A stretch of 64,000 nt of DNA from Ktedonobacterales bacterium. Lineage in GTDB: Bacteria; Chloroflexota; Ktedonobacteria; Ktedonobacterales; JADMIN01. Numbering within the stretch: position 1 is the first letter of the stretch; each line of letters opens with the position of its first letter. Both the position numbers and the translations under genes were made by a program. The stretch is taken from positions 9,492 to 73,491 of the forward strand of contig DASUHD010000178.1 of NCBI GenBank assembly GCA_036273675.1. Direction: 5' to 3'. This document shows, piece after piece, positions 43,601 to 58,831 of this stretch. The notes under the pieces are model-generated. The model did no database searches and was not told where the DNA came from. It saw only the letters and a program-made list of their open reading frames with translations.

Positions 43601-43741
43601 ACCGCCGACACCTACCAGGGTCAGCAGTCGTGTGGACGCCAAGATCCGGCTGAGCGCGCTGATATCTTGCCTGCGCCCGATGAAGCTGGTCAGCGGGCGC
43701 GGCAGCGTATCCAGTGCGTGAGCGTGGAGTCTCTCGGCCAT
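40661..43741 (-). CDS. Large STAND-type transcriptional regulator: N-terminal P-loop NB-ARC/AAA, central TPR array, C-terminal SARP winged-helix plus BTAD
   Basis: Walker A GVGGCGKTRLA. Multiple TPR-like repeats (..YEEALALYRDLGD.., ..FEESLAIRRLHGD.., ..FQESLALRLAIGD..). The C-terminus has ELRIFALGAPRVYV...YSKAHELLLFLL (OmpR/SARP wHTH) followed by BTAD (MRMYHGDFLA...YRRLIEADPYQEQAHRALMLLLARLGERAQALRHFDSL). Confidence 0.8.
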   Translation of the reverse strand: MAERLHAHALDTLPRPLTSFIGRRQDISALSRILASTRLLTLVGVGGCGKTRLAREVAIASRDVYPDGVWWADLAPLSDPAFISHALATTCQADEKPGEALEDTIVARLAPTNSLLILDNCEHLIEACAQMAQTLLSACPTLTILATSRETLNISGETVYTVPSLTLPDDHDSIDTITQSEAVQLFIERACSVAPGFMLTQSTAVATATICRRLDGLPLAIELAASRVRMLSPDAIAERLTSAISLLTGGSRTALPRHQALRATLDWSYALLPEPEALLFQRLAVFTGGFTLEAAEAVGGGDAEVDVLTLLGYLIDKSLVAVQRIPSAHDFQGGQDERRYHLLEVLRQYGVEKLTASGELEHTRRRHYDYFRHLVEPAEPELEGPAQLQWLNLLEQEHDNIRAALQWSIQQTRDDSAARLASHIWRFWLVRGYLSEGRSWLRQALELVPERSLTRARALLVLSILSYHHEGYRAAIRLVEEALALYRDLGDIKGLATAILNVGILALGNGDYAQAIDYFEESLPLCAQVNYTHGAALSLSSMGKAALNLGQYERAQALGTESIAMARASGDSRNIAGSLTDLGVTLFMQGEHAQALPYFEESLAIRRLHGDKGGAAHTLLYLGRVALAQGQPAATHAHFQESLALRLAIGDLEGQAAALEGLGALAAHADDGATAAHCFGAAVAARERVSAPILALDRAFTERWIAVARDLLGEEAFACELTAGRALSPEAAGRAPNAVSAPLAVTPATVDGPTELPRPPEVRRAPRPPVELRIFALGAPRVYVRSKLLASSDWTYSKAHELLLFLLAHGPATKSRIGLALWPDADAAHVRSQLHPVLYACRRALGDPAWVLFEGGRYRFNRERTHSYDVSAFETALTQARQALASAPDAPDAQGKAISLLENAMRMYHGDFLASETGNTAGDWIATYRAGLHQRWLDAVALLAGLLVSTGDHARAVTVYRRLIEADPYQEQAHRALMLLLARLGERAQALRHFDSLTRLLRNELATTPAPETTALAEALRSGAQV

Positions 43742-45150: not shown

Positions 45151-45374
45151 AGCAAGCCTTCATGACAGCAACGATCGATATTAACCAAAGGTACCGTATC
45201 CCAGCGTTTACGCACGATTACGTACATCTGTGCTCTTGACATCAAGGGATCGGATACCATAATATCACGAGCACTCCATGGGTATTCAAAGGCAGTTGCC
45301 ATACGTAATGATGGGCACCAATCAGAAATCGATCGGGTGAAGCGCCAGCACTTGGAGAGAGCGAGCCGCCCACC

Positions 45375-47159
45375 ATGTCGTCACCATCCAGTCTAAGCAG
45401 CGGCTTCACTACCCTGGTTGACCTCCTCCGCTGGCGCGCGATTAGGCAGCCGAGTATGCACGGCTACACCTACCTTGTCGATGGCGAGACTACCGAGGTT
45501 GGCCTGACATACGAAGAACTTGATCGGCGTGCACGTGCGATTGCCGCTGCGTTACAACTCGCTGGAGGGTCCGGCGAACGAGTGCTCCTCCTCTATCCAT
45601 CCGGGCTTGATTTCATCGCGGCGTTCTTCGGATGTCTGTATGCCGGGGCGGTGGCCGTTCCTGCCTATCCACCTGCAGCGCACAAGTCCGCTCAGCGTCT
45701 CCAGGTAATTGCTGCCGATGCGCAGGCCAGACTGGCGCTGACAACCAGCGCGATCAAGATTCAGACGAAGACAAGTTGGCCGGAGTTGGCAGACATACAG
45801 ACGATACTTACTGATGTGCTGCCTCCAGGCTCAGAGGAGCATTGGCAGAATCCAGCGGCAGCAGGTGAGTCATGCGCACTGCTTCAGTACACCTCGGGTT
45901 CGACCGCCATACCTCGCGGGGTACTAGTCACCCACAATAACCTTCTCGACAATTTGGAGCTTATTCACACCTGCGTCGATACATCGCCGGATACGCCGGG
46001 AGTATGCTGGCTCCCCATGTTTCATGATATGGGGCTCCTGACTGGCATTCTTGAGCCGATCTACGTCGGGGCGCATGTCACCCTCATGTCGCCGATCGCG
46101 TTCTTGCAGCGGCCATTTCGCTGGCTCCAAGCACTTTCGCACCGGCGCGCCGTAATCACTGGTGCGCCGAACTTCGCGTTGGATCTCTGCGTACGACGAA
46201 TTACCATAGACCAGCGTGCAATGCTTGATCTGAGTAGTCTCGACGTGCTGTTCGTGAGCGCCGAACCCGTGCGGATAGAGACGCTGGACCGCTTCGGTGA
46301 GTATTTCGCATCCTCGGGTTTCCGCCGTACCGCCTTTTACCCATGCTATGGGCTTGCTGAGTCGACGTTGGTGGTTGCAGGAGGGGCGCGAGCCGCTCCT
46401 CCTGTGGTAAAGCGCTTCATGGTTGACGGACTTGCCAGGAATCGAGTACGGATCGCTCACCGCAACGACGAGCCGGCGCGAAGCCTCGTCGGCTGCGGAC
46501 ATACACGCGGCAATCACCAGCTCCTGATCGTCGATCCAGTGACGTTCAGGCGCTGCCTACCGAACCAGGTCGGAGAGATTTGGGTCAGTGGGTCAAGCGT
46601 GGCGCAGGGCTATTGGAACAGTCCATCGGAGACCAATCAAACATTTCGTGCATACCTCGCCGATACTGGCGAGGGCCCCTTCTTACGCACCGGCGATCTC
46701 GGATTCTGCAAGGCCAATGAGCTGTTCATCACCGGTCGTATGAAGGATGCCATCATCATCCATGGCACGAATCATTCACCGCAAGAGATTGAGGCAACGG
46801 TCGAAGAGAGCGATCCCGCGCTACGGCCAGGGTGTGGCGCCGCAATCGCTGTCGAGATCGCAGGGGAAGAGCGGCTGGTGACGATCCACGAGGTAGAGCG
46901 CGGCTATCATATGGAGGACGTCGAAACGGTCATTGGAGCAATCCGTCAGCGCGTGGCCGAAGAGCATGGGCTACAAATCTACGCCATTGTGTTGGTCAAA
47001 CCAGGGAGCATCCCAAAGACGACAAGCGGCAAGATCCAGCGATTCGCATGCCGAGAACGATTTCTCGCCGGTACACTGGAGATCGTCGCTTTCCGGCAAT
47101 TGAGTTCTGTCCCATTGGGAGGACGGCAGAGCGTCTGTGAAGATAATGTCCGTCAATGA
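45375..47159 (+). CDS. Fatty acyl-AMP ligase (FAAL)
   Basis: N-terminus TLVDLLRWRA...YTYLVDGE..LTYEELDRRARAIAAAL, LLLYPSGLDFIAAFFGCLYAGAVAVPAYPP, and core LLQYTSGSTAIPRGVLVTHNNLL are typical of FadD32/FAAL-type starters. Confidence 0.85.
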   Translation: MSSPSSLSSGFTTLVDLLRWRAIRQPSMHGYTYLVDGETTEVGLTYEELDRRARAIAAALQLAGGSGERVLLLYPSGLDFIAAFFGCLYAGAVAVPAYPPAAHKSAQRLQVIAADAQARLALTTSAIKIQTKTSWPELADIQTILTDVLPPGSEEHWQNPAAAGESCALLQYTSGSTAIPRGVLVTHNNLLDNLELIHTCVDTSPDTPGVCWLPMFHDMGLLTGILEPIYVGAHVTLMSPIAFLQRPFRWLQALSHRRAVITGAPNFALDLCVRRITIDQRAMLDLSSLDVLFVSAEPVRIETLDRFGEYFASSGFRRTAFYPCYGLAESTLVVAGGARAAPPVVKRFMVDGLARNRVRIAHRNDEPARSLVGCGHTRGNHQLLIVDPVTFRRCLPNQVGEIWVSGSSVAQGYWNSPSETNQTFRAYLADTGEGPFLRTGDLGFCKANELFITGRMKDAIIIHGTNHSPQEIEATVEESDPALRPGCGAAIAVEIAGEERLVTIHEVERGYHMEDVETVIGAIRQRVAEEHGLQIYAIVLVKPGSIPKTTSGKIQRFACRERFLAGTLEIVAFRQLSSVPLGGRQSVCEDNVRQ

Positions 47160-47359
47160 GGCGCAAATAAGGCGCAATCAATCCGGGCCTCAGGCCAAAT
47201 GCTCTGCTCTGGGTTGCGCAGCGGTCAGCACGGTCAGCACGGTAAGGCGCGTCTTTAGTAGAACCACTCGATGAAAGCAGTCTCGTGCAATTCGCGGCTG
47301 TACCCATAAGCAAACGTCACGAGCCAGCATAGGCAGGCCAGCATCGATAGGAGGCTGAT

Positions 47360-48925
47360 GTGCGCATCCTTCTCGTTAGCCCAGCGTCCAACGCCTCACT
47401 GATTGCCCTGACCGAGGTTGGAGACATCACAGGTCACCATAGCTACATGCCCAACCTTGCGCTACCTACGCTCGCAGCGCTGGCTCCGGACGATGTAGAA
47501 ATCACTATCGTTGATGAACAAGTAACGCCAATCGATTTCACCCAACATTGGGATCTCGTAGGTATCACCGGGTATACGACGCACCAGCGACGCATGCTCG
47601 ATATCGCCGACGAATTCCGACGGCGCGGGCAGCTTGTAGCGATTGGTGGGCCGTACGCGAGTCTCTCTCCAGGTCACGTGCGACCGCACACGGATATTCT
47701 CTTCGTTGGTGAGGCCGAAGAAACCTGGCCGCAGTTTCTCCGAGAGTTCCGCGCTGGCTACTGGCAGCCTGAATATCGGGCGGTCTCAGCAATTGATCTG
47801 CGGTTCTCGCCAGTACCTGACATTCAGAAACTCCCGCTAGACGCCTACCTCGCAGGGGTTGTGCAGACGAGCCGGGGGTGCCCATTCGAGTGCGATTTTT
47901 GCGATGTGATCATTTACCTAGGTCGCAAGCAGCGCCACAAGTCTGCGGAGCGTGTCATCCAGGAACTGGAGCAATGGTATGAGGCAGGCTATCGCAGTGT
48001 CTTCCTCTCAGATGACAATTTCACTGTCAACCGCAGACACGCCACGGAGGTCATGACCGCCATTGCAGCATGGAATCAGTCCGTGTCCGAACCGATAGAC
48101 TTCTACACCCAGTTCTCGATTGACATCGCCCGTGACCAGGATACAGAACTGCTCGAACTCTGTGCCAGAGCCGGCCTCAAACAAGCGTTCATTGGATTGG
48201 AGTCACCTAACGCCGATGCGCTACGGGAGGTAAAAAAACGCCAAAACCTCCGATCTGATCTGATCGCCGATGTGCACCGCGTTCAGCAGCACGGGATCGT
48301 GGTACAGGCAGGCATTATCACCGGATTTGATGCCGATACAAGTGCGTCCTTTCGCTCGACGTTCGAGTTCCTGCAAGAGGCTGGCATCCCGATAGTTATC
48401 GTGAACATCATGCAGGCGCCGCAAGGAACTTCGCTGGCAGATCGGTTATTGCGAGAAGGTCGGCTAATTCCTCAACCATTTGCAGAGCACAAACCTACTC
48501 ACTTTCACACCAACATCATTGCGAAGGGCATGAGTCATCACGAGTTGGTCGCTGGCACGGTGTGGCTGCTCAACCGACTCTACGCTCCAGAGATGTTCCT
48601 GGAAAGATGCCGTGTCCTTGCAAAGAATCTTCCTGAGTCCCATACACCAGCGCGCACATCGCGGCGCGCGCTCGAAGTGTGGCAGCGCCTGCTCGCCTCG
48701 TATACGGCGCTTGGACCAGAATTCAGCGAACTGCCGCGCCAGGTGCTCAAGCTCTTCCGCCATCGCGAAACACAGGGGATTGGGACCGCCTTAATCCACT
48801 ACAAACATGTCGTGGCCACTCTGCGCCGAGACGCGCTATGGAACTCAGAACTGGGGCAGCGCGAAACCCCCGATTTCTCGATACACCTACCTGATTCTGA
48901 TATTGAGGAGGCATCTCATGCCTGA
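47360..48925 (+). CDS. B12-binding (class B) radical SAM enzyme
   Basis: N-terminal cobalamin-binding Rossmann-like region (MRILLVSPA..., DLVGITGYTT..., VAIGGPYAS). Radical SAM cluster motif SRGCPFECDFCDV (CxxxCxxC). GTG start preceded by AGGAGG. Confidence 0.8.
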   Translation: MRILLVSPASNASLIALTEVGDITGHHSYMPNLALPTLAALAPDDVEITIVDEQVTPIDFTQHWDLVGITGYTTHQRRMLDIADEFRRRGQLVAIGGPYASLSPGHVRPHTDILFVGEAEETWPQFLREFRAGYWQPEYRAVSAIDLRFSPVPDIQKLPLDAYLAGVVQTSRGCPFECDFCDVIIYLGRKQRHKSAERVIQELEQWYEAGYRSVFLSDDNFTVNRRHATEVMTAIAAWNQSVSEPIDFYTQFSIDIARDQDTELLELCARAGLKQAFIGLESPNADALREVKKRQNLRSDLIADVHRVQQHGIVVQAGIITGFDADTSASFRSTFEFLQEAGIPIVIVNIMQAPQGTSLADRLLREGRLIPQPFAEHKPTHFHTNIIAKGMSHHELVAGTVWLLNRLYAPEMFLERCRVLAKNLPESHTPARTSRRALEVWQRLLASYTALGPEFSELPRQVLKLFRHRETQGIGTALIHYKHVVATLRRDALWNSELGQRETPDFSIHLPDSDIEEASHA

Positions 48926-51900
48926 TGATCCTGCTGTCTCGGCTCGAGCCGAAGAGCGGCAGCAAGTCACGGTAAGACGCAGCGCCAAAGAGATCGAGAA
49001 CTGGCTGGTTAGGCAACTTGCCGAGCTGCTGGAGATTGCGCCCGAGGAGGTGGACGTCCGCAAACCATTCACTTACTTTGGCTTGGGCTCCGCCGAGTCC
49101 GTACTACTTGCTGCGGATCTGGAGCAATGGCTGGGAGTATCCGTTGAACCAACTGTCACCTGGGATCACCCAACCATCAAAAAAGTCGCACGCTTTTTGG
49201 CGAGGTCAGATGTATCTATCTCCGTAACAGAAACAAGTCAGATTGATCGTCAGGAAGCCAGGGAGATGGCGGAGTTGCTGCGGGCACAGTTGGGGCTTCC
49301 TCCGCCTTCTCTTCCCCTATCGCTCGGTCAACGCGCGCTATGGTATATCCACCAGATTGCTCCTACCAATTCTGCCTATAACTTGACGTATCTCGCCAGG
49401 CTGCAGGGACATCTCGATATCGTGGCCCTGCAAGGCGCTCTCAAGCTCCTGATCGACCGGCATCCCATCCTGCGCACGACGTATACATTGCAGGATGGAC
49501 AGCCCGTCCAGACAATTCATCCACAGCCAGGTACGAACCTCGAAGTGGTTCCGGTTATGCACTGGGGCAAAGAGCGACTGGACAAGGCCATCGCACAAAT
49601 AGCCGATTCCCCATTCGATCTGGAAAGTGGCCCAATCCTGCGCGCCCACCTTTTCACCCGCTCTAAGCGGACATCCCTTCTTATGTTGACCGTCCACCAC
49701 ATCGCGGCAGACATGTGGTCACTTGCCCGTCTTGCAGATGAACTCATCGCTCTGTATGTCGCGACAGCCAGTGGCACACCACCCACCCTTGCCCCAGCGA
49801 AATTTGACCACGAGGACTACGTCTCCTGGCAGCGGCAACTACTCGCAGGTTCCGAGGGAGATCGACAATGGGCCTTCTGGAGCGACCAGTTGCACGATGC
49901 GCCACCACATCTTGACCTGCCCACCGACCACTCACGCCCCCCTGTGCAGACGTACAGCGGAGCGACCGCCGAATTCAATCTGAACCCACTCCTGTGGCGT
50001 AAAGTCGTTGCGCTGGCACGTCGGGAGCATGTAACTCCCTTTATCGTGCTCTTAGCGACATTCCAGGTTCTGCTTTTCCGCTACACCGGACAGGAGGACA
50101 TCATCGTTGGCTGCCCAATGTTGGGTCGTACCCGAGCTGGGCTGAGTGAAACGATCGGCTATCTGGCCAATCCCGTACCGCTACGAGCCAACTTTTCTGG
50201 TGAGCCGACATTCCACGCGTTCCTGCATCAAGTGCGCGACACCGTTCGTGATGCAACCGACCACCAGGATTACCCGTTGCCGCTTCTCGTGGAGCGGCTA
50301 CAACCCGCCCGCGATCCCTCGCGCTCGCCGCTCTTCCAGATTGCGTTCGCCTGGGAGTGGCTCGGCAAGACGACGACTCCCAACATGGTGGCGGCTCAAT
50401 CGCTCGGGCTCTCAGTACACCCTCTCGAGATGAGCCAACGCGGCGCCCCCTTCGATTTGACACTTATGGCCATTCAAGAGGATAGCCAGTGTCACGGTGT
50501 GCTCCAATATAACGCCGATCTGTTCGAGGCATCCACGATGGCACGCTTGGCGCATCACTTCAGGTCGTTACTTGCAGAGATTGTTGCTCATTCTGAGCAG
50601 CCTGTGACCAGCCTCTCATTGCTGACGAGCGACGAACGCCAAGCTCTCATGCAAGAGTGGACAACGAGCGCCGAAGAGCACCTTGAGCCAGCATGCATCC
50701 ATCACCTCTTCGAGGCTCAGTCAGCGCTTCTTCCTGACTCTCCAGCTGTGATCAGTGGTGAGACGTCCATAACTTACCGGGAACTCAATCAGCGATCTGA
50801 GCAACTTGCTGAAAGGTTTCGGGCGCTTGGCATCGGAACTGAGGCGCGCGTCGGCGTCTTCCTGGATCGCTCGATTGACCTTGTCATCACATTGCTTGCT
50901 GTCCTAAAGGCAGGTGGCGCATACGTGCCGCTTGACCCGGCAACCCCCCAAGAGCGTCTGGCTTATATGCTTGCCGATGCAGGCGTCACGCTCGTGCTGA
51001 CAAACCAGCGACTGCTTGCGACGCTCCCGTCTACCGGTGCGGACGTGCTATGTATTGATGAATCAGCGATGACCGCGGACACGATGGAACCCGTGCTACA
51101 CAAGCGCATCTCGCGACCCGAGCAGCTTGCCTACATCATCTATACCTCCGGCTCGACTGGTCAACCGAAAGGGGTCGCCATCGAGCACCAGAGTGTCGCT
51201 AACCTGATACAATGGGCACGGCGTACCTATTCGCCGGAAGAACTCGCGGGCGTCCTCGCATCCACCTCGATTGGATTCGATATCTCGGTCTTCGAACTAC
51301 TCGTTCCGCTCTGTTGCGGAGGGACGGTTGTCCTTGTCGATAACCTGTTTGACTTGTCACGTTTGCCGAACGGGCAAGTGCATCTTGTCAACAGTGTGCC
51401 ATCGCTCGTCGCGGAGGTGCTCAAACAGGCTAGCTTGCCATCCACTGTATACACTCTAAACCTTGCGGGCGAACCATGTCCGGCGGATCTTGTTCAGCGG
51501 ATCTATGCACAGAGCCGGGTTGAGCGTATCCGAAACTTGTACGGCCCCACGGAGGCAACTATCTACGCCACAGCCGCTGAAGTGCCGCGCGACTGGAGTC
51601 GTCCCGTGCCTATTGGTCGGCCCATCGTCAACACCACGGCTTTCGTGCTGGATAGGCAAATGCAGCCGGTGCCCATCGGCGTGATCGGCGAACTCTACTT
51701 GGGTGGGGCCGGGCTGGCGCGTGGTTACTGGAATCGCCAGGATCTGACGCATGAACGCTTCGTTCATGGAACATTCAGCGAACACAAAAGTCTGCGGTTG
51801 TATCGAACTGGCGATATGGTTCGACGCCGTCCCGATGGCTCCCTCGTCTTTGTTGGGCGCGCGGATCATCAGGTGAAGTTGCGCGGGGTACGCATTGAAT

Positions 51901-52451
51901 TGGAAGAGTTGGAGAACATCCTTCGCCAAAATCGCACTGTTTCACAGGCCGTTGTCGTACTCCAAGACCGCGAAGATATCGGAAAGCGATTGGTAGCCTA
52001 CTGCGTGCTCCAAGATCAGTTACCCACCTCCGACCAGCAGGGCATCAGCAGTGAACTGCGCGCTCATATGCGGAGGTATGTCCCAGAGTATATGGTGCCC
52101 TCGTCTTTTGTGCTGCTCGACAGGCTCCCACTGACTCCGACGGGCAAGATTGATCGTCGAGCGCTGCCATCGGTGGATCCAGACAGTGCGTTGGCAGAGC
52201 GATACCGAGCATATGTAGCACCACAGACTGCTCTCGAGCGCCAGTTAAGTACTATTTGGACCGAGGTGCTCGGTTTGCCACAAATCAGTATCTACGACAA
52301 CTTTTTCGACCTGGGCGGGGTATCCCTACAGGCGCTCGAAGTCATCTCTCGGCTGCGTGATCTGGGCATCGAACTCGCACCGGAGGCGCTGCTCCAATAT
52401 CAGACAATCGCTGAGTTGGCATCGCTTCTGGAGCAGGAGATTGGGTCATGA
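48918..52451 (+). CDS. Non-ribosomal peptide synthetase, single module with loading carrier: T0-C-A-T1, no TE/R domain
   Basis: T0 (FTYFGLGSAESVLL), C domain with LTVHHIAADMWS (HHxxxD), A domain (YIIYTSGSTGQPKG, NLYGPTE, YRTGDMV, PLTPTGKIDRRAL), T1 (FFDLGGVSLQALEV). The ATG at 48918 overlaps the radical SAM gene end. Confidence 0.9.
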   Translation: MPDDPAVSARAEERQQVTVRRSAKEIENWLVRQLAELLEIAPEEVDVRKPFTYFGLGSAESVLLAADLEQWLGVSVEPTVTWDHPTIKKVARFLARSDVSISVTETSQIDRQEAREMAELLRAQLGLPPPSLPLSLGQRALWYIHQIAPTNSAYNLTYLARLQGHLDIVALQGALKLLIDRHPILRTTYTLQDGQPVQTIHPQPGTNLEVVPVMHWGKERLDKAIAQIADSPFDLESGPILRAHLFTRSKRTSLLMLTVHHIAADMWSLARLADELIALYVATASGTPPTLAPAKFDHEDYVSWQRQLLAGSEGDRQWAFWSDQLHDAPPHLDLPTDHSRPPVQTYSGATAEFNLNPLLWRKVVALARREHVTPFIVLLATFQVLLFRYTGQEDIIVGCPMLGRTRAGLSETIGYLANPVPLRANFSGEPTFHAFLHQVRDTVRDATDHQDYPLPLLVERLQPARDPSRSPLFQIAFAWEWLGKTTTPNMVAAQSLGLSVHPLEMSQRGAPFDLTLMAIQEDSQCHGVLQYNADLFEASTMARLAHHFRSLLAEIVAHSEQPVTSLSLLTSDERQALMQEWTTSAEEHLEPACIHHLFEAQSALLPDSPAVISGETSITYRELNQRSEQLAERFRALGIGTEARVGVFLDRSIDLVITLLAVLKAGGAYVPLDPATPQERLAYMLADAGVTLVLTNQRLLATLPSTGADVLCIDESAMTADTMEPVLHKRISRPEQLAYIIYTSGSTGQPKGVAIEHQSVANLIQWARRTYSPEELAGVLASTSIGFDISVFELLVPLCCGGTVVLVDNLFDLSRLPNGQVHLVNSVPSLVAEVLKQASLPSTVYTLNLAGEPCPADLVQRIYAQSRVERIRNLYGPTEATIYATAAEVPRDWSRPVPIGRPIVNTTAFVLDRQMQPVPIGVIGELYLGGAGLARGYWNRQDLTHERFVHGTFSEHKSLRLYRTGDMVRRRPDGSLVFVGRADHQVKLRGVRIELEELENILRQNRTVSQAVVVLQDREDIGKRLVAYCVLQDQLPTSDQQGISSELRAHMRRYVPEYMVPSSFVLLDRLPLTPTGKIDRRALPSVDPDSALAERYRAYVAPQTALERQLSTIWTEVLGLPQISIYDNFFDLGGVSLQALEVISRLRDLGIELAPEALLQYQTIAELASLLEQEIGS

Positions 52452-54469
52452 GCACGGGCAACATGATCATCGAGAGCATTGGCGCCTTTCTTCCAGAAAG
52501 GGTCGTTACGACGGACGAGGTGTTGCGAGGCTGTGCCACCAAGCTCGTGTTTCCGCTCGAACGAATCACCGGAATCCGCTCGCGACGAATGGCCGGAGAG
52601 GCGGAATTCTCAATTGACCTCGCGCGCCGGGCCGTCGAACGCTGCTTCCAGTTGTCGCGGTATCGCCCGGAAGACATTGACATTGTCATCTGCAGCAATA
52701 TCTCGCGCTGCGATGGCCCAAATTCGCAATTTACCTTCGAACCCAGCACAGCTGTGCGACTCAGCGCGCTCGTTGGCTGTACACATGCGCTCACATTTGA
52801 TATTGCGAACGCCTGTGCAGGCACGTTCACCGCATTCGCCCTTGCGGATGGGCTGCTCAAATCAGGCAAATACCATCGGGCTTTAGTGGCCAGTGGAGAG
52901 TACATCACATGTTTGACGCGAACCGCGCAGCGCGAGATCGAAGGAGCAGCAGATCCAAGACTGGCATGCTTGACGCTGGGTGACTCGGGTGTCGCGACGA
53001 TCCTGGAACTGGGGCAGAGCAAGACCGTTGGCTTCCAGCAGCTTGACATTTGTACGCTCGGTCGCTACAGCGATTGTTGTACAGCGGGCGCGTCGCATCG
53101 CAGTCACGGCGCGGTAATGCTCACTGATGCGTTGCGGCTCACCGCAGCCTCACTCACAGAGGGGCTGCCGCTCGCAATGGCTGGCCTCGCGCAGAACGGC
53201 TGGAGCCCTGATAATGCACAACATATCATTCTTCACCAAACCTCACGAACGACACTCGTTGGCGGTATGCGAGCGATCAACCATGCCGTTGGACGTGAGG
53301 CGTGTCATGTTGGCAATATGATTGACCATCTTGCGGATAGAGGGAACACGGCGACAAACAGCCACATGCTTGCACTCTACGAAAACATGGTATCTGGGAG
53401 AATTGGATCTGGTGAGACGGTGCTTTTTGGTGTGACGGGTTCAGGGCTGACCGTTGGTTCGGCCGTCTACACCCTTGATGACCTGCCAGAACGGGTGCGT
53501 CTCCAGGTCAATGGCCGCGGAGGGTATGCCAGGCAGACAGCCACACAAACCAAGCGCGCGCCCATGGACGCGCACGCGCCAGGGATCAGGATAGCCTGTG
53601 CAGCAACTAGCTCTACCCTGGCAGAAGAGGGCCATACTGCCCGGATGCTCGCGCACATCGCCGCCGAGCGATGCCTGGAACGCTGGCCAGGTGATCGCGA
53701 AGCGATTCCATTGTTGCTGTACGCGGGAGTGTATCGCGATGACTTTATGTGCGAGCCGGCGATGGCCGCCCTGCTGACTGCGGACCTGGACCTCGATCAT
53801 GCGCAAGCAGCGGCGAGCGTACAACGCAGATTGGCCTTCGATGTGTTCAACGGCTCGCTTGGATTCTTACAGGGCTGCTACCTGGCCAGCCAGTTGATGC
53901 GGGCGCGTGGGTTCGATTGCGCCATGATCGCGACAGGCGAGATCGAGAACAATGCTACGGTGTTCCCAGCGCGGATGCGGGGGCTTGTTGAGATGGGCAG
54001 TGCGCTAGTTCTCGAGACTCACAACGGCTCGGGTGGGTTCGGTGGCTTTCTCTTCCGTTCCTTTGTCGAGCACCTTGACGCGCTCTTCACCCGCACGAAT
54101 GAGGAGGGCGGAAAAACCTATCTGGAGTGTGCCAAGAGCGAGGACCTCGAAGAGCGCTACCTCACATGCATTGCCCAGACTGTGCGTGAATTTCTGGCTG
54201 CGGAGGAGATTGTGCTGGATCAAGTAAACGTGGTCTTTCCACCGCAAATTTCGAGTTCGTTTATCTCCCGTCTCGCGACAATCCTTGGCCTCGATCGATC
54301 CAGGTTCGTTGACGCATGCCTGGATAATGGAGATGCTTTCACGTCCTCGCTGCCCCTCGCACTCGAACAGGCGCGCGAGCATGGGTCAATGAACGCAGGC
54401 GACATCGGGCTTATGATCGCGGTCGGGTCAGGTGTCCAGGTGGGTTGCGCGCTCTATCGCTTCCTCTAG
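52448..54469 (+). CDS. KASIII (FabH)-like enzyme fused to a second, catalytically degenerate KASIII-like half
   Basis: Half 1 has the full Cys-His-Asn triad context: IANACAGTF (C123, nt 52814-52816), ILHQTS (H263), DRGNTATNS (N300). Half 2 (residues ~378-673) keeps the fold pattern but reads FNGSLGF, FPPQIS and DNGDAFTSS at the equivalent sites. The start overlaps the NRPS stop (ATGA). Confidence 0.8.
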   Translation: MSTGNMIIESIGAFLPERVVTTDEVLRGCATKLVFPLERITGIRSRRMAGEAEFSIDLARRAVERCFQLSRYRPEDIDIVICSNISRCDGPNSQFTFEPSTAVRLSALVGCTHALTFDIANACAGTFTAFALADGLLKSGKYHRALVASGEYITCLTRTAQREIEGAADPRLACLTLGDSGVATILELGQSKTVGFQQLDICTLGRYSDCCTAGASHRSHGAVMLTDALRLTAASLTEGLPLAMAGLAQNGWSPDNAQHIILHQTSRTTLVGGMRAINHAVGREACHVGNMIDHLADRGNTATNSHMLALYENMVSGRIGSGETVLFGVTGSGLTVGSAVYTLDDLPERVRLQVNGRGGYARQTATQTKRAPMDAHAPGIRIACAATSSTLAEEGHTARMLAHIAAERCLERWPGDREAIPLLLYAGVYRDDFMCEPAMAALLTADLDLDHAQAAASVQRRLAFDVFNGSLGFLQGCYLASQLMRARGFDCAMIATGEIENNATVFPARMRGLVEMGSALVLETHNGSGGFGGFLFRSFVEHLDALFTRTNEEGGKTYLECAKSEDLEERYLTCIAQTVREFLAAEEIVLDQVNVVFPPQISSSFISRLATILGLDRSRFVDACLDNGDAFTSSLPLALEQAREHGSMNAGDIGLMIAVGSGVQVGCALYRFL

Positions 54470-54546
54470 AGCGCCTGCCTATCGCAGATAGCGCCGACCG
54501 CTGGACGATGACCGTGTTAGAAGACAAACACTTGATGGAGGATGAC

Positions 54547-55407
54547 ATGAGCATCCCGCATTCTACTGCCATACGTGTGACAACGGAACCGATGCGCTGG
54601 CTATTCCGCAGTGTGAGCGCCCTTGCCCTCATTACTGGCTTCTCGCTGTATGTGCTCAGTGAGCGTACCGATCACTTCTTCTCCTGGACAATTCTCCCAC
54701 CGATCACGGCCGCTTTCTTTGGCGCCTGCTTCTGGACGGCAGCGATCATCGCCTTCCTGGCCTCCCGACAGCACGTCTGGATTCGGGCGAGGATCGCTGG
54801 TCCGGTGATACTGAGCTTCACCGTGCTCACATTGATTGCAACACTGCTGCATTTGGAGAAGTTCCACTTATTCAGTTCAGATATGGTGGCTCGTGGCGCT
54901 GCCTGGGCCTGGATGATTCTCTACGTGGTAGTGCCACCGGTCACACTGGTATTACTCCCTCTGCAACTACGGACGCCTGGGCACGACCCGGCACGGTCGA
55001 GGCCACTTTTCCGCTGGCTTCGTGTCACCCTTGGCATCCAGGCCGGGGTGCTTGTGGCGGTTGGCCTCGTGCTCTTCCTCGCCCCTCAGACAGCTACTTT
55101 CTGGCCGTGGAAACTGACGCCGCTGACTGCTCAAGTGACCGGCGGATGGTTGCTCGCCGTTGGCGGGGCGGCAGCGCAGACTGTTTGGGAGAACGATTGG
55201 TCGCGGGTCGCAATAGCGCTCATCAGCTATACAGCGCTCGGTGCGCTCCAACTTGTGGCGCTGGCGCGCTATGTCTCCCAGATACAATGGAGCAGCCTGT
55301 GGAGCTGGTTGTATACCCTCTTTGTTGTCACCATCGTGGTGGTCGGCGTTGTGTGTTGGCGCACGGCATGGCCAGCAGCCGTGGAGAGTCCTGAGCTAGC
55401 CAGTTGA
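54547..55407 (+). CDS. Polytopic membrane protein of unknown function (cluster-associated)
   Basis: About 8 hydrophobic helices. The ATG at 54547 is preceded by GGAGG. Earlier in-frame ATGs at 54508 and 54535 are possible. Confidence 0.5.
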   Translation: MSIPHSTAIRVTTEPMRWLFRSVSALALITGFSLYVLSERTDHFFSWTILPPITAAFFGACFWTAAIIAFLASRQHVWIRARIAGPVILSFTVLTLIATLLHLEKFHLFSSDMVARGAAWAWMILYVVVPPVTLVLLPLQLRTPGHDPARSRPLFRWLRVTLGIQAGVLVAVGLVLFLAPQTATFWPWKLTPLTAQVTGGWLLAVGGAAAQTVWENDWSRVAIALISYTALGALQLVALARYVSQIQWSSLWSWLYTLFVVTIVVVGVVCWRTAWPAAVESPELAS

Positions 55408-55436
55408 GCGAATGGATCGCGCCTGGCGTCCGTCGA

Positions 55437-55925
55437 TCAGGCATCTGGGGTCTGAGTTGAAATGGCGCCAGAGGGCGCGCGCTCAAGGGTCTTTTTCAGA
55501 CGATCCATTGCACGCAGATTCATCGGACGAATCAACAGCGGCCAGTTGATCGACTTAACGATCATGCCGACGACCCGCGGCAGTCGGGTACTAATATGGC
55601 GCTCGATCAATGTTCCGTCACCATCTGACCGGAACGTGAACTCGTGCAAGAACTCGCCGTCAATGCCACGAGCAACAAATGCAAGCCGATCTGGAGGGGT
55701 AAGTTCGGTGATCACCACCTCAGAGTGGAAGGGCAAGCCAGCTGTTTTGCCCACGGAATGGAATGTACTTCCCACAACTACAGGGCCCGGTGCATCGGCC
55801 TCAATGCGTAGTTCAGTACCAGACCATTCTGAGTGACGACTCAAATCCGACACGTATGCATATGCTGTGGCGGGTGGAACGGTGACATGTGTCTGATACG
55901 TCCAGACAAACGTCTTCGCAGCCAT
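55437..55925 (-). CDS. SRPBCC (START/polyketide cyclase-dehydrase-like) family protein
   Basis: 162 aa. VTVPPATAYAYVSDLSRHSEWSG... is typical of the Polyketide_cyc2/SRPBCC N-terminus. Confidence 0.7.
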   Translation of the reverse strand: MAAKTFVWTYQTHVTVPPATAYAYVSDLSRHSEWSGTELRIEADAPGPVVVGSTFHSVGKTAGLPFHSEVVITELTPPDRLAFVARGIDGEFLHEFTFRSDGDGTLIERHISTRLPRVVGMIVKSINWPLLIRPMNLRAMDRLKKTLERAPSGAISTQTPDA

Positions 55926-56080
55926 AAAACACTCTCCTCAAATAGGTTGTCCCGCTCGTAAGAGCATCTCAGCACGTCAGCATGTCAGCACGTCAGCTAC
56001 TGCGCCCACTAATATCTATGGGACTATTCATAACGGACCAGCGTTATACGCTATTGCGCAGTTGCCCATATATGTGGGAA

Positions 56081-56833
56081 TCACGGCGACCAGGACCAGA
56101 GGCGAAGGCTCGTAGGTGGCCCCTGGACAGCAACAGTCGCCACAAAGCCGGAATCCGGCGTGAGAGCATACAAAGACCATCTCGCCGCATCTTCGATACT
56201 GCCCGCAATGCGAAGCAGACGCGCAGAATCGGTCGGCGCCACGGAGACCGCAAACGAGTCCAGAGGGATGCTCATCCCTAGCCCCAGCGCCTTCATAAAA
56301 GCCTCCTTTCGTGTCCAGCACGTGAAGAACGCCATCTGACGAGCAGGCATGGAGAGGCCCTGTAGGGCCACACGTTCCTCTGCCGCGAAGTAGAGTTCTG
56401 CCATCAGGTCAAAGTGGACGAGTGATCTGACGCGCTCAATATCTGCCCCTATTACGTGATTGCGTGTGACGGCGTAGAGCGCGATCCCTTCCGAGTGTGC
56501 GACATTGAACGACAAGAGCGATGCCTGACGAGGTGCGGCAAGTTCCGGCTTACCGTGCCGTCCGTATTGGAATTCAAGACTTTGCGGTTCAGCGCCCACA
56601 TAACGCGCCAGAAGCATTCGCAGGCTTGCTCGTCCGACCACGTACCGCTGACGATCCCGCTCGAAGTGGAAGCGTTGCGCGCGCTCTCTCTCTCCTGGCG
56701 CGAGGATCGTTGTGAGCCAATGCACATGCCCGGGTGGCTGGTCGAGAAATACGCGATAGATGTGTATCTCGTTCTCAGCGAAATGAATCGAACTAGGAGC
56801 AACTATCCACTCCCTGGCAAGACAGTCCGTCAT
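56081..56833 (-). CDS. Sfp-type 4'-phosphopantetheinyl transferase
   Basis: ERERAQRFHFERDRQRYVVGRASLR, FNVAHSEG, GADIE and FFTCWTRKEAFMKALGLG (W/KEA motif). Confidence 0.85.
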   Translation of the reverse strand: MTDCLAREWIVAPSSIHFAENEIHIYRVFLDQPPGHVHWLTTILAPGERERAQRFHFERDRQRYVVGRASLRMLLARYVGAEPQSLEFQYGRHGKPELAAPRQASLLSFNVAHSEGIALYAVTRNHVIGADIERVRSLVHFDLMAELYFAAEERVALQGLSMPARQMAFFTCWTRKEAFMKALGLGMSIPLDSFAVSVAPTDSARLLRIAGSIEDAARWSLYALTPDSGFVATVAVQGPPTSLRLWSWSP

Positions 56834-56942
56834 GTGTATCCCCTTGATTGCCCACAGCGCAAGAAGGCTCCAATCGCTTGTGACTGGCCGCGACTGTCAT
56901 ACCTGTCATGCCCGTCAAATTGGTGCCTGCGTGACGTTACCA

Positions 56943-58379
56943 TCAGTCATGCGCTATGTCCTGCCCGTTGGAATCTGGCGACTCTCCGCTAAAGCGATGC
57001 ATAGTCATCGGTATGCCGCCGCGGGGGCGCAATGTCACCAGCGGGTCTGGGATAACGCGGACGTCGGGTGATACGAGACGCAGTTGATAACGCGACAGGA
57101 TTGTCGCCAGGATCAGTTGCGCCTCCATCATGGCGAATTGATTGCCGATGCACTGGCGTGGGCCACCGCTAAAAGGAAAGTACACGAAACGGGCGCGTCC
57201 GGCGGCCCGCTCAGCGGCAAACCGTTCAGGATCGAAGGCGTCTGGCTGCTCCCAGAGGTCAGGGCGCCGATGCGTCACATACTGGAAGACCAGAATGTAT
57301 GCCCCCCCAGGTATGGTATAGCCACCGATCTCGTCGCCAGCCAAGGCGCGTCGTCCGAGCGCCCAAGCTGGCGGATAGAGACGCATCGTTTCCTCGACGA
57401 CCATACGAGTCAGAGGGAACTGGGGAAGATCGTTGAACTGTGGCAGCCGCCCCAGCAGCGCCTGTTGATACTCCGAATACAGGTTTGCTATGACATTCGG
57501 GTGCTGTGCCAGCAGGTAGAATGTCCAGGCTAACGTGGTGGCGGTCGTTTCGTGACCCGCTATCAGCAATGTCATGATCTCATCGCGCATCTGCTGGTCC
57601 GACATACCCTCGCCTGTCTCTTCATCGCGCGCCTCAAGAAGCATAGCAAGGAGATCCTCGCGCTGACTGCCAGACATGCGACGCCTGCGAATGATCGCGT
57701 CAACAACTTCATAGAGCTCGCGGCGCGGCGCACGCAACTGGTGACGTTGCGGTGTTGGGAGCAACAGAAGCCACGGCAGGTAATAGGCTTCCGCTAGCAG
57801 GTGATTCGACGTGCCGAGCGCGCGACTTACGCGTTGCATCTCCTCGTCCGATAGATCCGACCCAAACAGTGCATTGCAGACGATTGTCAAGGTGAGTCTG
57901 GACATCTCGTGCAGGATGTCGAATGGGGTGTCGTTGTCGACGCTATTGCTCGTCTCCAGATGGTCGAGCCATGCGACGGTAGCATCAATCATCAATGTTG
58001 CAAAGGTAGCGACCCTATCACGATGGAACGCGGGCTGCATCAAGCGGCGCTGGTGCAGCCACGGCTTGCCGTCGTTGGTAAGCAGCCCGTTGCCCAGGAT
58101 TAAGCTCAAGATGCGATACTCGGGGATTTGCTTGTCGTAGTTGAGATGATTTTCCTGTAGAACGTGGCGTACACCGTCTGGATGGAAGATCAATGTCAGC
58201 CGACCCTTTAGTGTGGGAACAGAAACGACATCCCCGTAGCGCTGATGGAGCTCTAAGCTGAAGTCGAGCGCATGGCGCAAGAACCTGACTGTGTTCCCTG
58301 GTGCCGTATATGATGGCGGTCCAGGCAGACGGGATGCCTGCCGCCCACCAGGGCGGGACGATGGAAAGCCGATTGCCAT
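56943..58379 (-). CDS. Cytochrome P450
   Basis: Heme loop FPFSGGPRQCIG, ExxR (ETMR), I-helix AGHETT. The ATG at 58379 is preceded by GGAGGGA. Confidence 0.85.
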   Translation of the reverse strand: MAIGFPSSRPGGRQASRLPGPPSYTAPGNTVRFLRHALDFSLELHQRYGDVVSVPTLKGRLTLIFHPDGVRHVLQENHLNYDKQIPEYRILSLILGNGLLTNDGKPWLHQRRLMQPAFHRDRVATFATLMIDATVAWLDHLETSNSVDNDTPFDILHEMSRLTLTIVCNALFGSDLSDEEMQRVSRALGTSNHLLAEAYYLPWLLLLPTPQRHQLRAPRRELYEVVDAIIRRRRMSGSQREDLLAMLLEARDEETGEGMSDQQMRDEIMTLLIAGHETTATTLAWTFYLLAQHPNVIANLYSEYQQALLGRLPQFNDLPQFPLTRMVVEETMRLYPPAWALGRRALAGDEIGGYTIPGGAYILVFQYVTHRRPDLWEQPDAFDPERFAAERAAGRARFVYFPFSGGPRQCIGNQFAMMEAQLILATILSRYQLRLVSPDVRVIPDPLVTLRPRGGIPMTMHRFSGESPDSNGQDIAHD

Positions 58380-58831
58380 GCAGCGTTCTCCCTCCGTGCG
58401 CCAACTAGCCATACCGTTGCCCACTTGGCTGGCCAGGATCTGGCCGCTCGGCGCGTACCTCATTGGCTGTCATACCTGGTACCCGCCGCTCAATCGAAGT
58501 TGGTCGGATAGCTGTAGTGTACACCGATTTACGAGACGTGAACTATGGAAGTGACGAGCGCTTCAGCTATTCGACAGACGCTCGACATGATGCTGCGTAC
58601 TGGCCTTACTCTTTCTGTTTCTCAGCATTGATTGGCGGTTCGTGAGCAGGCCGACCGTTCGCTGGCCACAGGTGAGCTTCAACAGGACGATTGTGTTATC
58701 TTACCTTCGATAGCCAGTCTATATCTCCGCCATTCCATGTCGTGTTGTGAGCCATGCGCGAATCATACTCGCGGCGGCCTCTTGGGCGTTTGCAGTTCGT
58801 AAGCTCTTGATAGATAGCGCGGAGGGCGCCA

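What the first reader, a model, noticed from the sequence alone, without database searches (positions are those of the whole stretch)
45375..58379. Orphan FAAL / B12-radical SAM / T-C-A-T NRPS / KASIII-didomain cluster with no canonical chain-release domain
Four tightly coupled forward genes have start/stop overlaps at 48918-48925 and 52448-52451. They encode:
- a fatty acyl-AMP ligase
- a class B radical SAM enzyme
- a one-module NRPS whose N-terminal carrier domain is positioned to receive the FAAL-activated acyl chain before a starter-type C domain
- a FabH-like enzyme fused to a degenerate second FabH-like half

A polytopic membrane protein follows. Convergent to these are an SRPBCC protein, an Sfp-type PPTase and a P450.

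The assembly logic predicts an N-acyl amino acid thioester on T1, yet there is no TE, R or terminal C domain. KASIII-like enzymes are known to perform off-loading or chain-joining chemistry in other pathways: pyrone formation by MxnB/CorB/PpyS, tetronate formation, and DpsC/CerJ-type acyl transfer. The FabH-like didomain is therefore a plausible release or condensation catalyst, possibly producing a cyclised or C-C-joined lipoamino-acid-derived product. I do not recognise this gene combination as a characterised pathway.
Basis: partly seen in the sequence, partly recalled or inferred. Interest (0 to 1): 0.7.

Follow-up and report, generated by a model that had tools for sequence, protein, structure and literature searches.

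The report
Lipo-amino-acid synthetase ended by a ketosynthase
A Chloroflexota gene cluster builds a fatty-acyl amino acid on a carrier protein and most likely releases it by carbon-carbon bond formation with a two-lobed FabH-like enzyme, which in hundreds of other bacteria, many mycobacteria among them, is fused to the end of the peptide synthetase and has no characterised member that I could find.

Summary
The forward genes are FAAL, a B12/radical-SAM enzyme, a T-C-A-T NRPS, a KASIII didomain and a membrane protein. An SRPBCC protein, a PPTase and a P450 converge on them. The gene overlaps are exactly as described, and the NRPS carries no TE, R or terminal C domain.

In 54 of 88 related loci the didomain is the C-terminal domain of a C-A-T module. 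Its N-half carries the Glu-Cys-His-Asn tetrad of non-decarboxylative Claisen ketosynthases (OleA, PpyS, NocG). Its C-half has lost Cys, His and Asn but keeps the Glu, like LstB in the LstAB heterodimer. These residues are invariant in 209 family members.

The cluster is not an orphan. Its core belongs to a family with at least 579 loci in five phyla, usually serine-activating and often followed by a reductase. The window clade differs in four ways:
- the KAS gene is split from the NRPS;
- the A-domain code is Ala-like;
- a FAAL-rSAM-carrier cassette is grafted on;
- there is a P450 but no reductase.

The product is unknown. My inference is an N-acyl alpha-amino ketone or beta-keto-acid lipid. 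I found no paper that characterises this family.

The parts
45236..45263 (+). Promoter-like site, TTGACA-16-CATAAT (11 of 12 matches), about 110 nt upstream of the FAAL start
   Evidence: This is the best match in 44-59 kb, but the number of such sites in the region is no higher than in shuffled sequence, so it is only suggestive.
45375..47159 (+). Fatty acyl-AMP ligase (FAAL). It activates a fatty acid and loads it onto T0.
   Evidence: Pfam AMP-binding 1.7e-61 plus DIP2-like C-domain. The NCBIfam fatty-acid--AMP ligase model scores 1e-140, below its cutoff. Orthologues are fused to a carrier domain in L006. dN/dS 0.17 against L003.
47360..48925 (+). Class B (B12-binding) radical SAM enzyme with DUF4070. 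It probably modifies the acyl chain while the chain is on the carrier.
   Evidence: Pfam. CxxxCxxC motif. Homologues of 54-60% identity lie directly before a small carrier-protein gene in L090, L091 and L092, with a FAAL gene directly upstream in L090 and L092.
48918..52451 (+). One-module NRPS, T0-C-A-T1 (1177 aa). It overlaps the rSAM gene by 8 nt.
   Evidence: Pfam. Overlap read. No domain follows T1.
48981..49202 (+). T0 carrier domain (GLGS motif). It takes the place of the free ACP in FAAL-rSAM-ACP cassettes.
   Evidence: Second PP-binding stretch, sequence, cassette comparison. Boundaries are approximate.
49311..50648 (+). Condensation domain (HHIAAD motif). It N-acylates the amino acid held on T1.
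   Evidence: Pfam Condensation 5.7e-102. The nearest solved structures are LCL-type C domains.
50709..52148 (+). Adenylation domain, specificity code DIFNNALIYK (Ala-like)
   Evidence: The code was extracted by alignment to GrsA-PheA, and the reference code was recovered correctly. The assignment to Ala rests on my memory of the code DLFNNALTYK.
52242..52430 (+). T1 carrier domain, which holds the N-acyl-aminoacyl thioester
   Evidence: PP-binding, residues 1146-1208 of the 1214-aa ORF.
52448..53482 (+). KAS didomain, active N-half: E98, C123 (codon 52814-52816), H263, N300
   Evidence: Alignment to FabH and OleA. All four residues are invariant in 209 relatives. ATGA overlap with the NRPS gene.
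53579..54466 (+). KAS didomain, degenerate C-half: Cys->S470, His->P599, Asn->D629. It keeps E436 (codon 53753-53755).
   Evidence: Alignments to E. coli FabH and X. campestris OleA. E436, P437, D465 and E498 are invariant in 209 relatives. AF2 model with pLDDT 86.9 and pTM 0.92.
54547..55407 (+). Polytopic membrane protein of unknown family (start uncertain; the ORF opens at 54445)
   Evidence: No Pfam or NCBIfam hit. Conserved after the KAS gene in L003 and L005. 1568 distant relatives in the representative library. Not homologous to the membrane proteins that follow the KAS gene in L087 or L001.
55437..55925 (-). SRPBCC / Polyketide_cyc2 protein (lipid-binding or cyclase fold)
   Evidence: Pfam 4.6e-09. 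Conserved in L003.
56081..56833 (-). Sfp/HetI-type phosphopantetheinyl transferase, which would activate T0 and T1
   Evidence: Pfam ACPS plus AASDHPPT_N. NCBIfam HetI 2.5e-59, below its cutoff. A PPTase sits next to the KAS didomain in 13 loci.
56943..58463 (-). Cytochrome P450, a probable tailoring oxygenase
   Evidence: Pfam p450 5.1e-90. A P450 directly follows the KAS didomain in Bacteroidota loci. Orthology is not shown: 36% identity to that P450, against 37% to an unrelated P450 in the same window.
40661..43741 (-). STAND NTPase-TPR-BTAD regulator, a possible cluster regulator (membership uncertain)
   Evidence: Pfam. It is absent from the equivalent position in L003.

Best explanation
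This is a thiotemplated lipo-amino-acid pathway whose chain-terminating step is a Claisen-type C-C condensation. The catalyst is a single-chain, pseudo-heterodimeric KASIII enzyme.

Proposed steps:
1. The PPTase activates T0 and T1.
2. FAAL adenylates a fatty acid and loads it onto T0.
3. The B12/radical-SAM enzyme modifies the T0-bound chain. Methylation at an unactivated carbon is the default guess.
4. The A domain loads a small amino acid (Ala-like code) onto T1.
5. The C domain forms N-acyl-aminoacyl-S-T1.
6. The KAS didomain takes an acyl group onto C123. E436 from the degenerate C-half deprotonates the alpha-carbon, as Glu117 does in OleA and LstB-E60 does in LstAB. The carbanion attacks the second thioester, so T1 is freed by C-C bond formation. 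The second acyl group may come from CoA, from ACP, or from a reloaded T0.
7. The resulting alpha-substituted beta-keto acid is either kept or decarboxylates to an N-acyl alpha-amino ketone.
8. The P450, and perhaps the SRPBCC and membrane proteins, tailor or handle the lipid.

What is shown: the gene and domain architecture, the fusions in relatives, and the catalytic-residue pattern. What is inferred: the order of events, the radical-SAM chemistry, the identity of the second substrate, and the product.
For: 1. Rosetta-stone fusions. In 54 of 88 related loci the didomain lies more than 700 residues into an ORF that contains C-A-T. Pfam confirms C-A-T-KAS for L006 and for M. europaeum L067. Some relatives carry the fusion as T-KAS or KR-T-KAS.
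2. In the window clade the split gene still overlaps the NRPS gene by ATGA.
3. The N-half aligns to OleA as 'TFE98PSTAV...FDIANAC123' against OleA 'YLE117PSTAS...FDVANAC143'. FabH enzymes have Met, Phe or Tyr at the Glu position.
4. The C-half aligns as 'MCE436PAMAA' and has Ser/Ala/Gly, Pro and Asp in place of Cys, His and Asn.
5. E98, C123, H263, N300 and E436 are 100% invariant in 209 sequences from at least five phyla.
6. The E-C-H-N tetrad is the published signature of non-decarboxylative Claisen ketosynthases: NocG E100/C125/H275/N304, PpyS E105/C129/H281/N310 and OleA E117/C143/H285/N315 (PMC9486936).
7. In LstAB, one subunit holds the triad and the partner's Glu60 is essential (PMC12141560).
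8. Reductase genes often lie within a few kb downstream of the didomain: an Epimerase/3beta-HSD type in 25 loci and an SDR in 14. This fits a keto product.
9. FAAL-T fusion and FAAL-rSAM-ACP cassettes support loading and modification on T0.
10. All seven genes are under purifying selection.
Against: - Over the whole length, the closest solved structures and sequences are decarboxylating FabH enzymes.
- The window cluster has no reductase and no OleC/OleD-like partner.
- The second substrate is unknown.
- The Glu is also invariant in the N-half, where it would point into a dead site, so its conservation could be structural.
- I could not read the AF2 coordinates, so the E436-C123 proximity rests on homology to FabH/OleA dimers, not on a measurement.
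- I did not check whether acyl-transferring KASIII enzymes (CerJ, DpsC, ChlB6) or PqsC/PqsD also carry this Glu.
- There are no expression or metabolite data.
Confidence: 0.55

Rival explanations
1. The didomain is a FabH-type decarboxylative condensing enzyme. N-acyl-aminoacyl moves to C123 and is extended by malonyl-CoA or malonyl-ACP to a gamma-acylamino-beta-keto acid. That acid is then reduced (statine-like), cyclised (N-acyl tetramic acid) or decarboxylated (methyl ketone).
For: The best overall sequence and fold matches are FabH enzymes. The Cys-His-Asn triad is intact. Relatives are fused to KR-ACP, which looks like a PKS module. Reductases lie downstream. Peptidyl beta-keto acids made by an NRPS followed by a KS are known to decarboxylate spontaneously (PMC10979478).
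Against: The invariant Glu sits at the position that is hydrophobic in FabH and catalytic in OleA, PpyS, NocG and LstB. A decarboxylative mechanism needs no such base. No malonyl-specific AT or ACP is encoded in the window.
Confidence: 0.2
2. The didomain is an acyltransferase or cyclase of the CerJ, DpsC or ChlB6 kind. It moves the N-acyl-aminoacyl group from T1 via C123 to a hydroxyl or amine acceptor, or to an internal nucleophile, and so releases an ester, an amide or a lactone without forming a C-C bond.
For: KASIII-fold acyltransferases exist, and ChlB3 appears among the weaker PDB hits. A C-terminal position behind T fits any release chemistry. Glycosyltransferase and amidase genes occur in some relatives.
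Against: The invariant His, Asn and trans-Glu fit enolate chemistry. Reductases recurring within a few kb downstream argue for a ketone product.
Confidence: 0.12
3. The didomain acts upstream, making or priming the unusual fatty acid that FAAL then activates. The N-acyl amino acid is released by spontaneous or unlinked hydrolysis, for example by a type II TE encoded elsewhere.
For: FabH enzymes normally prime fatty-acid synthesis. A type II TE is present in the relative L006. Didomain genes without an NRPS exist in Lentisphaeria.
Against: A fusion to the C-terminus of T in most relatives is hard to reconcile with an upstream role. FAAL takes free fatty acids.
Confidence: 0.06
4. The cluster is decaying or silent, and the split between the NRPS and KAS genes marks inactivation.
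For: The split differs from the majority fused state. The sequence comes from a metagenome, and there are no expression data.
Against: All ORFs are intact. The same split with the ATGA overlap is found in L003 and L004. dN/dS is 0.14-0.37 for seven genes. All catalytic residues are present.
Confidence: 0.03

Closest known systems
LstAB, the KAS-III heterodimer of lipstatin biosynthesis (Streptomyces toxytricini)
   Same: Two FabH-like lobes. One has Cys-His-Asn (LstA C128/H271/N305). The other lacks the triad but supplies an essential Glu (LstB E60). It performs a non-decarboxylative Claisen condensation to an alpha-branched beta-keto acid (PMC12141560).
   Different: LstAB is two polypeptides acting on acyl-CoAs, and it works with the OleC/OleD-like LstC and LstD to give a beta-lactone. 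Here the two lobes are one chain, placed behind an NRPS carrier domain. The window encodes no LstC/LstD equivalents.
OleA (Xanthomonas campestris) head-to-head thiolase
   Same: The motifs 'EPST' and 'FD(V/I)ANAC' align residue for residue with the didomain's N-half, and the Glu117 equivalent is present in both halves. An Epimerase/3beta-HSD-type reductase lies within a few kb downstream in 25 relatives, as OleD partners OleA (the OleD family assignment is from my own knowledge).
   Different: OleA is a homodimer with two active sites that uses two acyl-CoAs. There is no oleBCD in the window, and overall identity is low (E about 1e-11 to 1e-12).
NocH/NocG of nocuolin A biosynthesis
   Same: A FAAL-ACP loads fatty acids, and a stand-alone ketosynthase with the E/C/H/N residues condenses carrier-bound acyl chains without decarboxylation (PMC9486936).
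   Different: NocG is a single-domain homologue, and no amino acid or NRPS module is involved.
PpyS, MxnB and CorB, pyrone-forming ketosynthases
   Same: Chain-joining and off-loading ketosynthases. PpyS has the same tetrad.
   Different: They need a beta-ketoacyl partner and lactonise to alpha-pyrones. CorB is only a marginal PDB hit (E 3.6e-4). The window has no PKS module to provide a beta-keto chain.
TAS1 (fungal tenuazonic acid synthetase), C-A-PCP-KS
   Same: An NRPS module terminated by a ketosynthase domain that releases the chain (PMC4640141, listed).
   Different: The TAS1 KS is a type I PKS-type domain that performs a Dieckmann cyclisation of an N-acetoacetyl amino acid. The family here uses a KASIII didomain, and the acyl chain is not beta-keto (FAAL only, or KR/DH-containing PKS modules in relatives).

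Membership tests
KASIII/FabH family (thiolase superfamily) | ACP_syn_III and ACP_syn_III_C domains with a FabH-like fold | tested here: met
   Pfam 1e-12 and 6.2e-27. Foldseek top hits are FabH, with TM-score normalised by target length of 0.86-0.91, each covering one half.
KASIII/FabH family (thiolase superfamily) | Cys-His-Asn catalytic triad | tested here: met
   N-half C123/H263/N300, invariant in 209 sequences. Not met in the C-half: S470/P599/D629.
Canonical decarboxylating FabH | Hydrophobic residue (E. coli Phe87') contributed across the dimer interface, and a homodimer | tested here: not met
   Glu at this position in both halves. The protein is a single-chain pseudo-dimer.
Non-decarboxylative Claisen ketosynthases (OleA, PpyS, NocG) | Glu-Cys-His-Asn tetrad, with the Glu about 24-26 residues before the Cys | tested here: met
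   E98/C123/H263/N300, with a spacing of 25. Aligned to OleA E117/C143. Tetrads of the known enzymes are listed in PMC9486936.
Non-decarboxylative Claisen ketosynthases (OleA, PpyS, NocG) | Demonstrated condensation of two acyl thioesters without loss of CO2 | not testable with these tools
   Needs an enzyme assay.
Ole and Lst beta-lactone/olefin pathways | Co-encoded OleC/LstC beta-lactone synthetase and OleD/LstD reductase | tested here: not met
   None in the window. Reductases occur only in relatives.
LstAB-type heteromeric KASIII | One lobe with the triad plus a triad-less lobe that supplies an essential Glu | tested here: met
   Met by sequence pattern only. Whether E436 is essential is untested.
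Fatty acyl-AMP ligase | AMP-binding fold with a FAAL-type C-terminal domain, and transfer to a carrier rather than to CoA | tested here: inconclusive
   Pfam AMP-binding plus DIP2-like. NCBIfam FAAL models reach 1e-140 but stay below their curated cutoffs. Orthologue fused to a carrier in L006. The FAAL insertion motif was not examined.
Class B (cobalamin-dependent) radical SAM | N-terminal B12-binding domain plus a CxxxCxxC radical SAM core | tested here: met
   PF02310 7e-08 and PF04055 1.6e-15. 'CPFECDFC' motif. No NCBIfam equivalog reaches its cutoff.
NRPS starter (Cs) condensation domain | Sequence membership in the Cs clade | tested here: inconclusive
   Nearest solved structures are LCL-type (Txo2 1.4e-77), against SrfA-A Cs at 9e-27 and CDA C1 at 3e-12. 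No phylogeny was run. The function as an N-acylating C domain is inferred from its position.
Canonical NRPS termination | A TE, R or terminal C/CT domain in cis or adjacent | tested here: not met
   T1 ends six residues before the stop codon. No such gene among the Pfam-scanned ORFs from about 22 kb to 63 kb of the window.

The most novel reading that the evidence does not exclude
The C-A-T-KAS-didomain family is a PLP-independent, thiotemplated route to sphingoid-like lipids. N-acyl-Ser-S-T (Gly in some relatives, Ala-like in this window) is joined head-to-head to a fatty acyl thioester. The beta-keto acid loses CO2 to give an N-acyl-2-amino-3-keto-alkane, that is, a 3-keto-dihydroceramide skeleton. 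With Ala the product would be a 1-deoxy analogue. The reductase encoded nearby downstream in relatives would then make a ceramide-like lipid. This would mean that many mycobacteria, Chloroflexota, Planctomycetota and Bacteroidota make ceramide-type lipids with an NRPS instead of serine palmitoyltransferase.
Probability: 0.2. Interest if true: 0.85.

Novelty: new variant of a known kind. Interest (0 to 1): 0.66.

Why it matters
NRPS and PKS lines are known to end by hydrolysis, cyclisation, reduction or, rarely, Dieckmann chemistry. A fused, LstAB-like KASIII pseudo-heterodimer as the standard terminal domain of a lipo-amino-acid synthetase would be a further release logic, namely C-C bond-forming off-loading.

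The family is common. There are at least 579 loci among about 185,000 species genomes. Of the 80 loci kept, 46 are from Mycobacterium, Mycolicibacter or other Actinomycetota. No product has been assigned that I could find. The family therefore marks a sizeable block of unexplored lipid chemistry in environmental and opportunistic mycobacteria, Chloroflexota, Planctomycetota and Bacteroidota.

The catalytic hypothesis can be tested directly in vitro with an E436/C123 mutant pair.

The window clade adds a FAAL-rSAM-carrier cassette. That cassette also occurs on its own in other phyla and is itself uncharacterised.

Tried and rejected
- Literature. Ten full-text searches found no paper on a C-A-T-KASIII didomain or on a FAAL/rSAM/NRPS/KASIII cluster. 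They found only analogues: LstAB, OleA, NocG, TAS1 and coralinone. Subscription-only literature was not searchable, and antiSMASH/MIBiG could not be run.
- Membrane protein. I tested whether the membrane protein after the KAS gene is the same as the weak CDP-alcohol-transferase-like protein after the KAS gene in L087, or the 274-aa protein in Pontibacter L001. There is no similarity. It has no Pfam hit even at E = 1.
- P450. I tested whether the cluster P450 is orthologous to the P450 that follows the KAS gene in Bacteroidota. This is inconclusive: 36% identity, against 37% to an unrelated P450 elsewhere in the window.
- Dieckmann/tetramate release as in TAS1. I rejected this as the main model because the acyl chain is not beta-keto. 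The window has no PKS module, and the PKS modules of relatives carry KR or DH.
- CysRS-GT2 fusion and CN-hydrolase as cluster members. I rejected this because the fusion is the usual CysRS of Chloroflexota.
- A fixed-offset extraction of A-domain codes failed. I replaced it with an alignment to GrsA-PheA.
- AF2 coordinates are not exposed to scripts, so the E436-C123 distance could not be measured.

Full report
**1. What is in the window**

- FAAL, 45375-47159.
- Class B radical SAM, 47360-48925, with B12-binding, Radical_SAM and DUF4070 domains and the motif CPFECDFC.
- NRPS, 48918-52451, with the domain order T0-C-A-T1.
- KASIII didomain, 52448-54469.
- A polytopic membrane protein, about 54547-55407.
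- On the other strand: an SRPBCC protein, a Sfp/HetI-type PPTase and a P450.

The 8-nt (ATGCCTGA) and 4-nt (ATGA) overlaps are real. T1 ends six residues before the stop codon. No TE, R or terminal C domain appears in the Pfam-scanned ORFs from about 22 kb to 63 kb.

The best promoter-like site of the region lies about 110 nt upstream of the FAAL gene. That is weak evidence.

The next gene downstream is a CysRS-GT2 fusion. It has hundreds of 50-70% identical full-length relatives, and all of those that carry an organism name are from Chloroflexota or Dehalococcoidia. The window is therefore from a Chloroflexota bacterium, and the cluster ends at the P450.

A second metagenome contig, L003, carries the same seven genes in the same order at 76-95% amino-acid identity, with dN/dS of 0.14-0.37. 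The genes are therefore maintained by selection.

**2. The KAS didomain**

A 23-sequence alignment and a 209-sequence alignment show an N-half with invariant C123, H263 and N300.

Alignment of the C-half to E. coli FabH puts Ser/Ala/Gly at the Cys position, Pro599 at the His position and Asp629 at the Asn position.

AlphaFold2 gives a confident compact two-lobed model, with pLDDT 86.9 and pTM 0.92. Foldseek matches each lobe to FabH-fold enzymes.

The informative detail is a Glu.
- X. campestris OleA reads 'YLE117PSTAS...FDVANAC143'.
- The N-half reads 'TFE98PSTAV...FDIANAC123'.
- The C-half reads 'MCE436PAMAA...FDVFNGS470'.
- FabH enzymes have Met, Phe or Tyr at this position.

E98, P99, E436 and P437 are invariant in all 209 sequences.

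The Glu-Cys-His-Asn tetrad is the published signature of ketosynthases that perform non-decarboxylative Claisen condensations: NocG, PpyS and OleA (PMC9486936). In the lipstatin enzyme LstAB, LstA holds C128/H271/N305 and the triad-less partner LstB supplies an essential Glu60 (PMC12141560).

From established knowledge of FabH and OleA dimers, this residue reaches into the partner subunit's active site. So E436 of the dead lobe should serve the C123 site. The didomain therefore looks like a single-chain LstAB.

**3. Relatives and context**

The didomain is not rare. There are 575 proteins at E <= 1e-10 among the candidates scored, and at least 579 loci in one-genome-per-species GTDB contigs. 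The 80 loci kept break down as follows:
- 46 Mycobacterium, Mycolicibacter or other Actinomycetota
- 13 Bacteroidota
- 10 Chloroflexota
- 7 Lentisphaeria
- 4 Planctomycetota

In 54 of 88 loci examined, the didomain begins more than 700 residues into an ORF. Pfam shows that this ORF is C-A-T-KAS in Chloroflexia L006 and in M. europaeum L067.

The upstream genes vary:
- FAAL-T in L006.
- FAAL-T-KS-AT-KR-T in mycobacteria.
- FAAL, a luciferase-like monooxygenase and a reducing PKS in Bacteroidota and others.

Some proteins are T-KAS or KR-T-KAS fusions. A few didomains lack an NRPS altogether: one follows a KR-ACP gene in L002 from an Aminicenantes genome, and one is isolated in L086 from a Lentisphaeria genome.

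A domain that sits behind the last carrier domain in most relatives is a chain-terminating domain.

**4. Amino acid and downstream enzymes**

Specificity codes were extracted by alignment to GrsA-PheA, and the control recovered the reference code DAWTIAAICK. Outside the window clade the codes are:
- Ser (DVWHxSLIDK or DPWHFSLIDK) in 36 of 40 modules
- Gly (DILQLGxxWK) in 3
- Tyr-like in 1

The window, L003 and L004 have DIFNNAL(I/V)YK. From memory, this is 8 of 10 identical to the Ala code DLFNNALTYK.

I clustered neighbouring ORFs and annotated them with Pfam. Recurrent genes within a few kb downstream of the didomain are:
- an Epimerase/3beta-HSD-type reductase in 25 loci
- an amidase in 19
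- an FAD/BBE oxidase in 16
- a MacB-type ABC exporter in 16-17
- an SDR in 14
- a PPTase in 13
- a P450 in Bacteroidota

Reductases recurring near a condensing enzyme argue that its product is a ketone.

**5. The radical SAM enzyme**

Only the window clade has this gene inside a KAS cluster. Its 54-60% identical homologues are followed directly by a roughly 100-aa carrier protein in L090, L091 and L092. A FAAL gene lies directly upstream in L090 and L092. In L089 the homologue sits beside a FAAL-ACAD-ACP/PKS gene pair.

The window order FAAL-rSAM-T0 is the same cassette, with the carrier fused to the NRPS. I infer that the enzyme modifies the acyl chain on the carrier. The chemistry is unknown, and methylation is only the default for class B enzymes.

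**6. Mechanism proposed**

The steps are these.
1. FAAL loads T0.
2. The radical SAM enzyme edits the chain.
3. The A domain loads an Ala-like residue onto T1.
4. The C domain makes N-acyl-aminoacyl-S-T1.
5. The KAS didomain forms a C-C bond between this thioester and a second acyl thioester, through a C123-bound enolate generated by E436. This releases T1.
6. The beta-keto acid persists or decarboxylates. Peptidyl beta-keto acids do this spontaneously (PMC10979478).
7. The P450 then oxidises the lipid.

Whichever partner acts as the nucleophile, decarboxylation gives an N-acyl-2-amino-3-keto-alkane. With serine, as in most relatives, and a reductase, that is a dihydroceramide skeleton. I rate this reading at about 0.2.

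The rival explanations are decarboxylative extension with malonyl (0.2), acyl transfer or lactonisation (0.12), an upstream priming role (0.06) and a dead cluster (0.03).

**7. Comparison with known systems, and novelty**

Functionally the didomain resembles LstAB, OleA and NocG. In architecture it resembles the fungal TAS1 (C-A-PCP-KS).

It is not a member of the Ole or Lst pathways, because no OleC/OleD equivalents are present. It is also not a canonical FabH, because Glu replaces the hydrophobic gate residue and the protein is a pseudo-dimer.

By similarity to solved structures the C domain is closer to LCL-type domains than to classical starter C domains.

Ten literature searches found no description of this architecture. 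The limits are that paywalled papers could not be searched and MIBiG was not available.

I class the finding as a new variant of a known kind: a KASIII-type, C-C bond-forming NRPS termination. The window clade is an unusual member of that family, with a split KAS gene, an Ala-like code, an added rSAM cassette and no reductase.

Noticed in passing
window 58832-61162 (+): Cysteinyl-tRNA synthetase fused to a C-terminal GT2 glycosyltransferase (776 aa). It passes the NCBIfam cysS cutoff. Full-length relatives with the same fusion are very numerous, and those carrying an organism name are from Chloroflexota or Dehalococcoidia, so this appears to be the lineage's normal CysRS. The role of the GT2 domain is unknown.
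   Followed up: partly
window 45375-55925 compared with L003: Synonymous divergence jumps at the NRPS/KAS junction. dS is 0.13-0.18 for FAAL, rSAM and NRPS, but 0.41-0.44 for KAS, the membrane protein and SRPBCC. This suggests recombination that swapped one half of the cluster between lineages.
   Followed up: no
L090 6209-9886; L092 5099-8907: A three-gene FAAL / B12-radical-SAM / ACP cassette stands alone in a Pirellulales genome and in another metagenome contig, with no PKS or NRPS called within the 7-8 kb fetched on either side. This looks like an uncharacterised unit for modifying fatty acyl-ACP.
   Followed up: partly
L078 8515-9972 (also L043, L048, L060, L075): In some Bacteroidota loci, a roughly 485-aa protein with no Pfam hit lies directly upstream of the KAS didomain. 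It has a coiled-coil-like N-half, and its C-half contains 'DEAKH' and 'EQDEKRH' motifs, which may mark a di-iron enzyme.
   Followed up: no
L002 8052-13095; L086 10001-12025: KAS didomains without any NRPS. In L002, from a genome annotated as Aminicenantes, the didomain follows a KR-ACP protein and precedes an SDR. In L086, from a Lentisphaeria genome, it stands alone among housekeeping genes. The family's substrate range is wider than lipo-amino acids.
   Followed up: no
window 54547-55407 (+): The membrane protein belongs to a sizeable family with no annotation: 1568 representatives at E <= 1e-3, and no Pfam hit even at E = 1.
   Followed up: partly
window 40661-43741 (-): A 1026-aa STAND NTPase-TPR-BTAD regulator lies about 1.6 kb upstream of the cluster. 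It is followed by a roughly 1.6-kb stretch (43.8-45.4 kb) with only short ORFs. It is absent from the equivalent position in L003.
   Followed up: no
window 8401-9882 (+): A second P450, 37% identical to the cluster P450, lies in an unrelated neighbourhood.
   Followed up: no
window 4802-6076 (-): An ORF with a Phage_portal domain hit (2.6e-13, above the Pfam cutoff) sits among ordinary chromosomal genes. It may be a prophage remnant.
   Followed up: no
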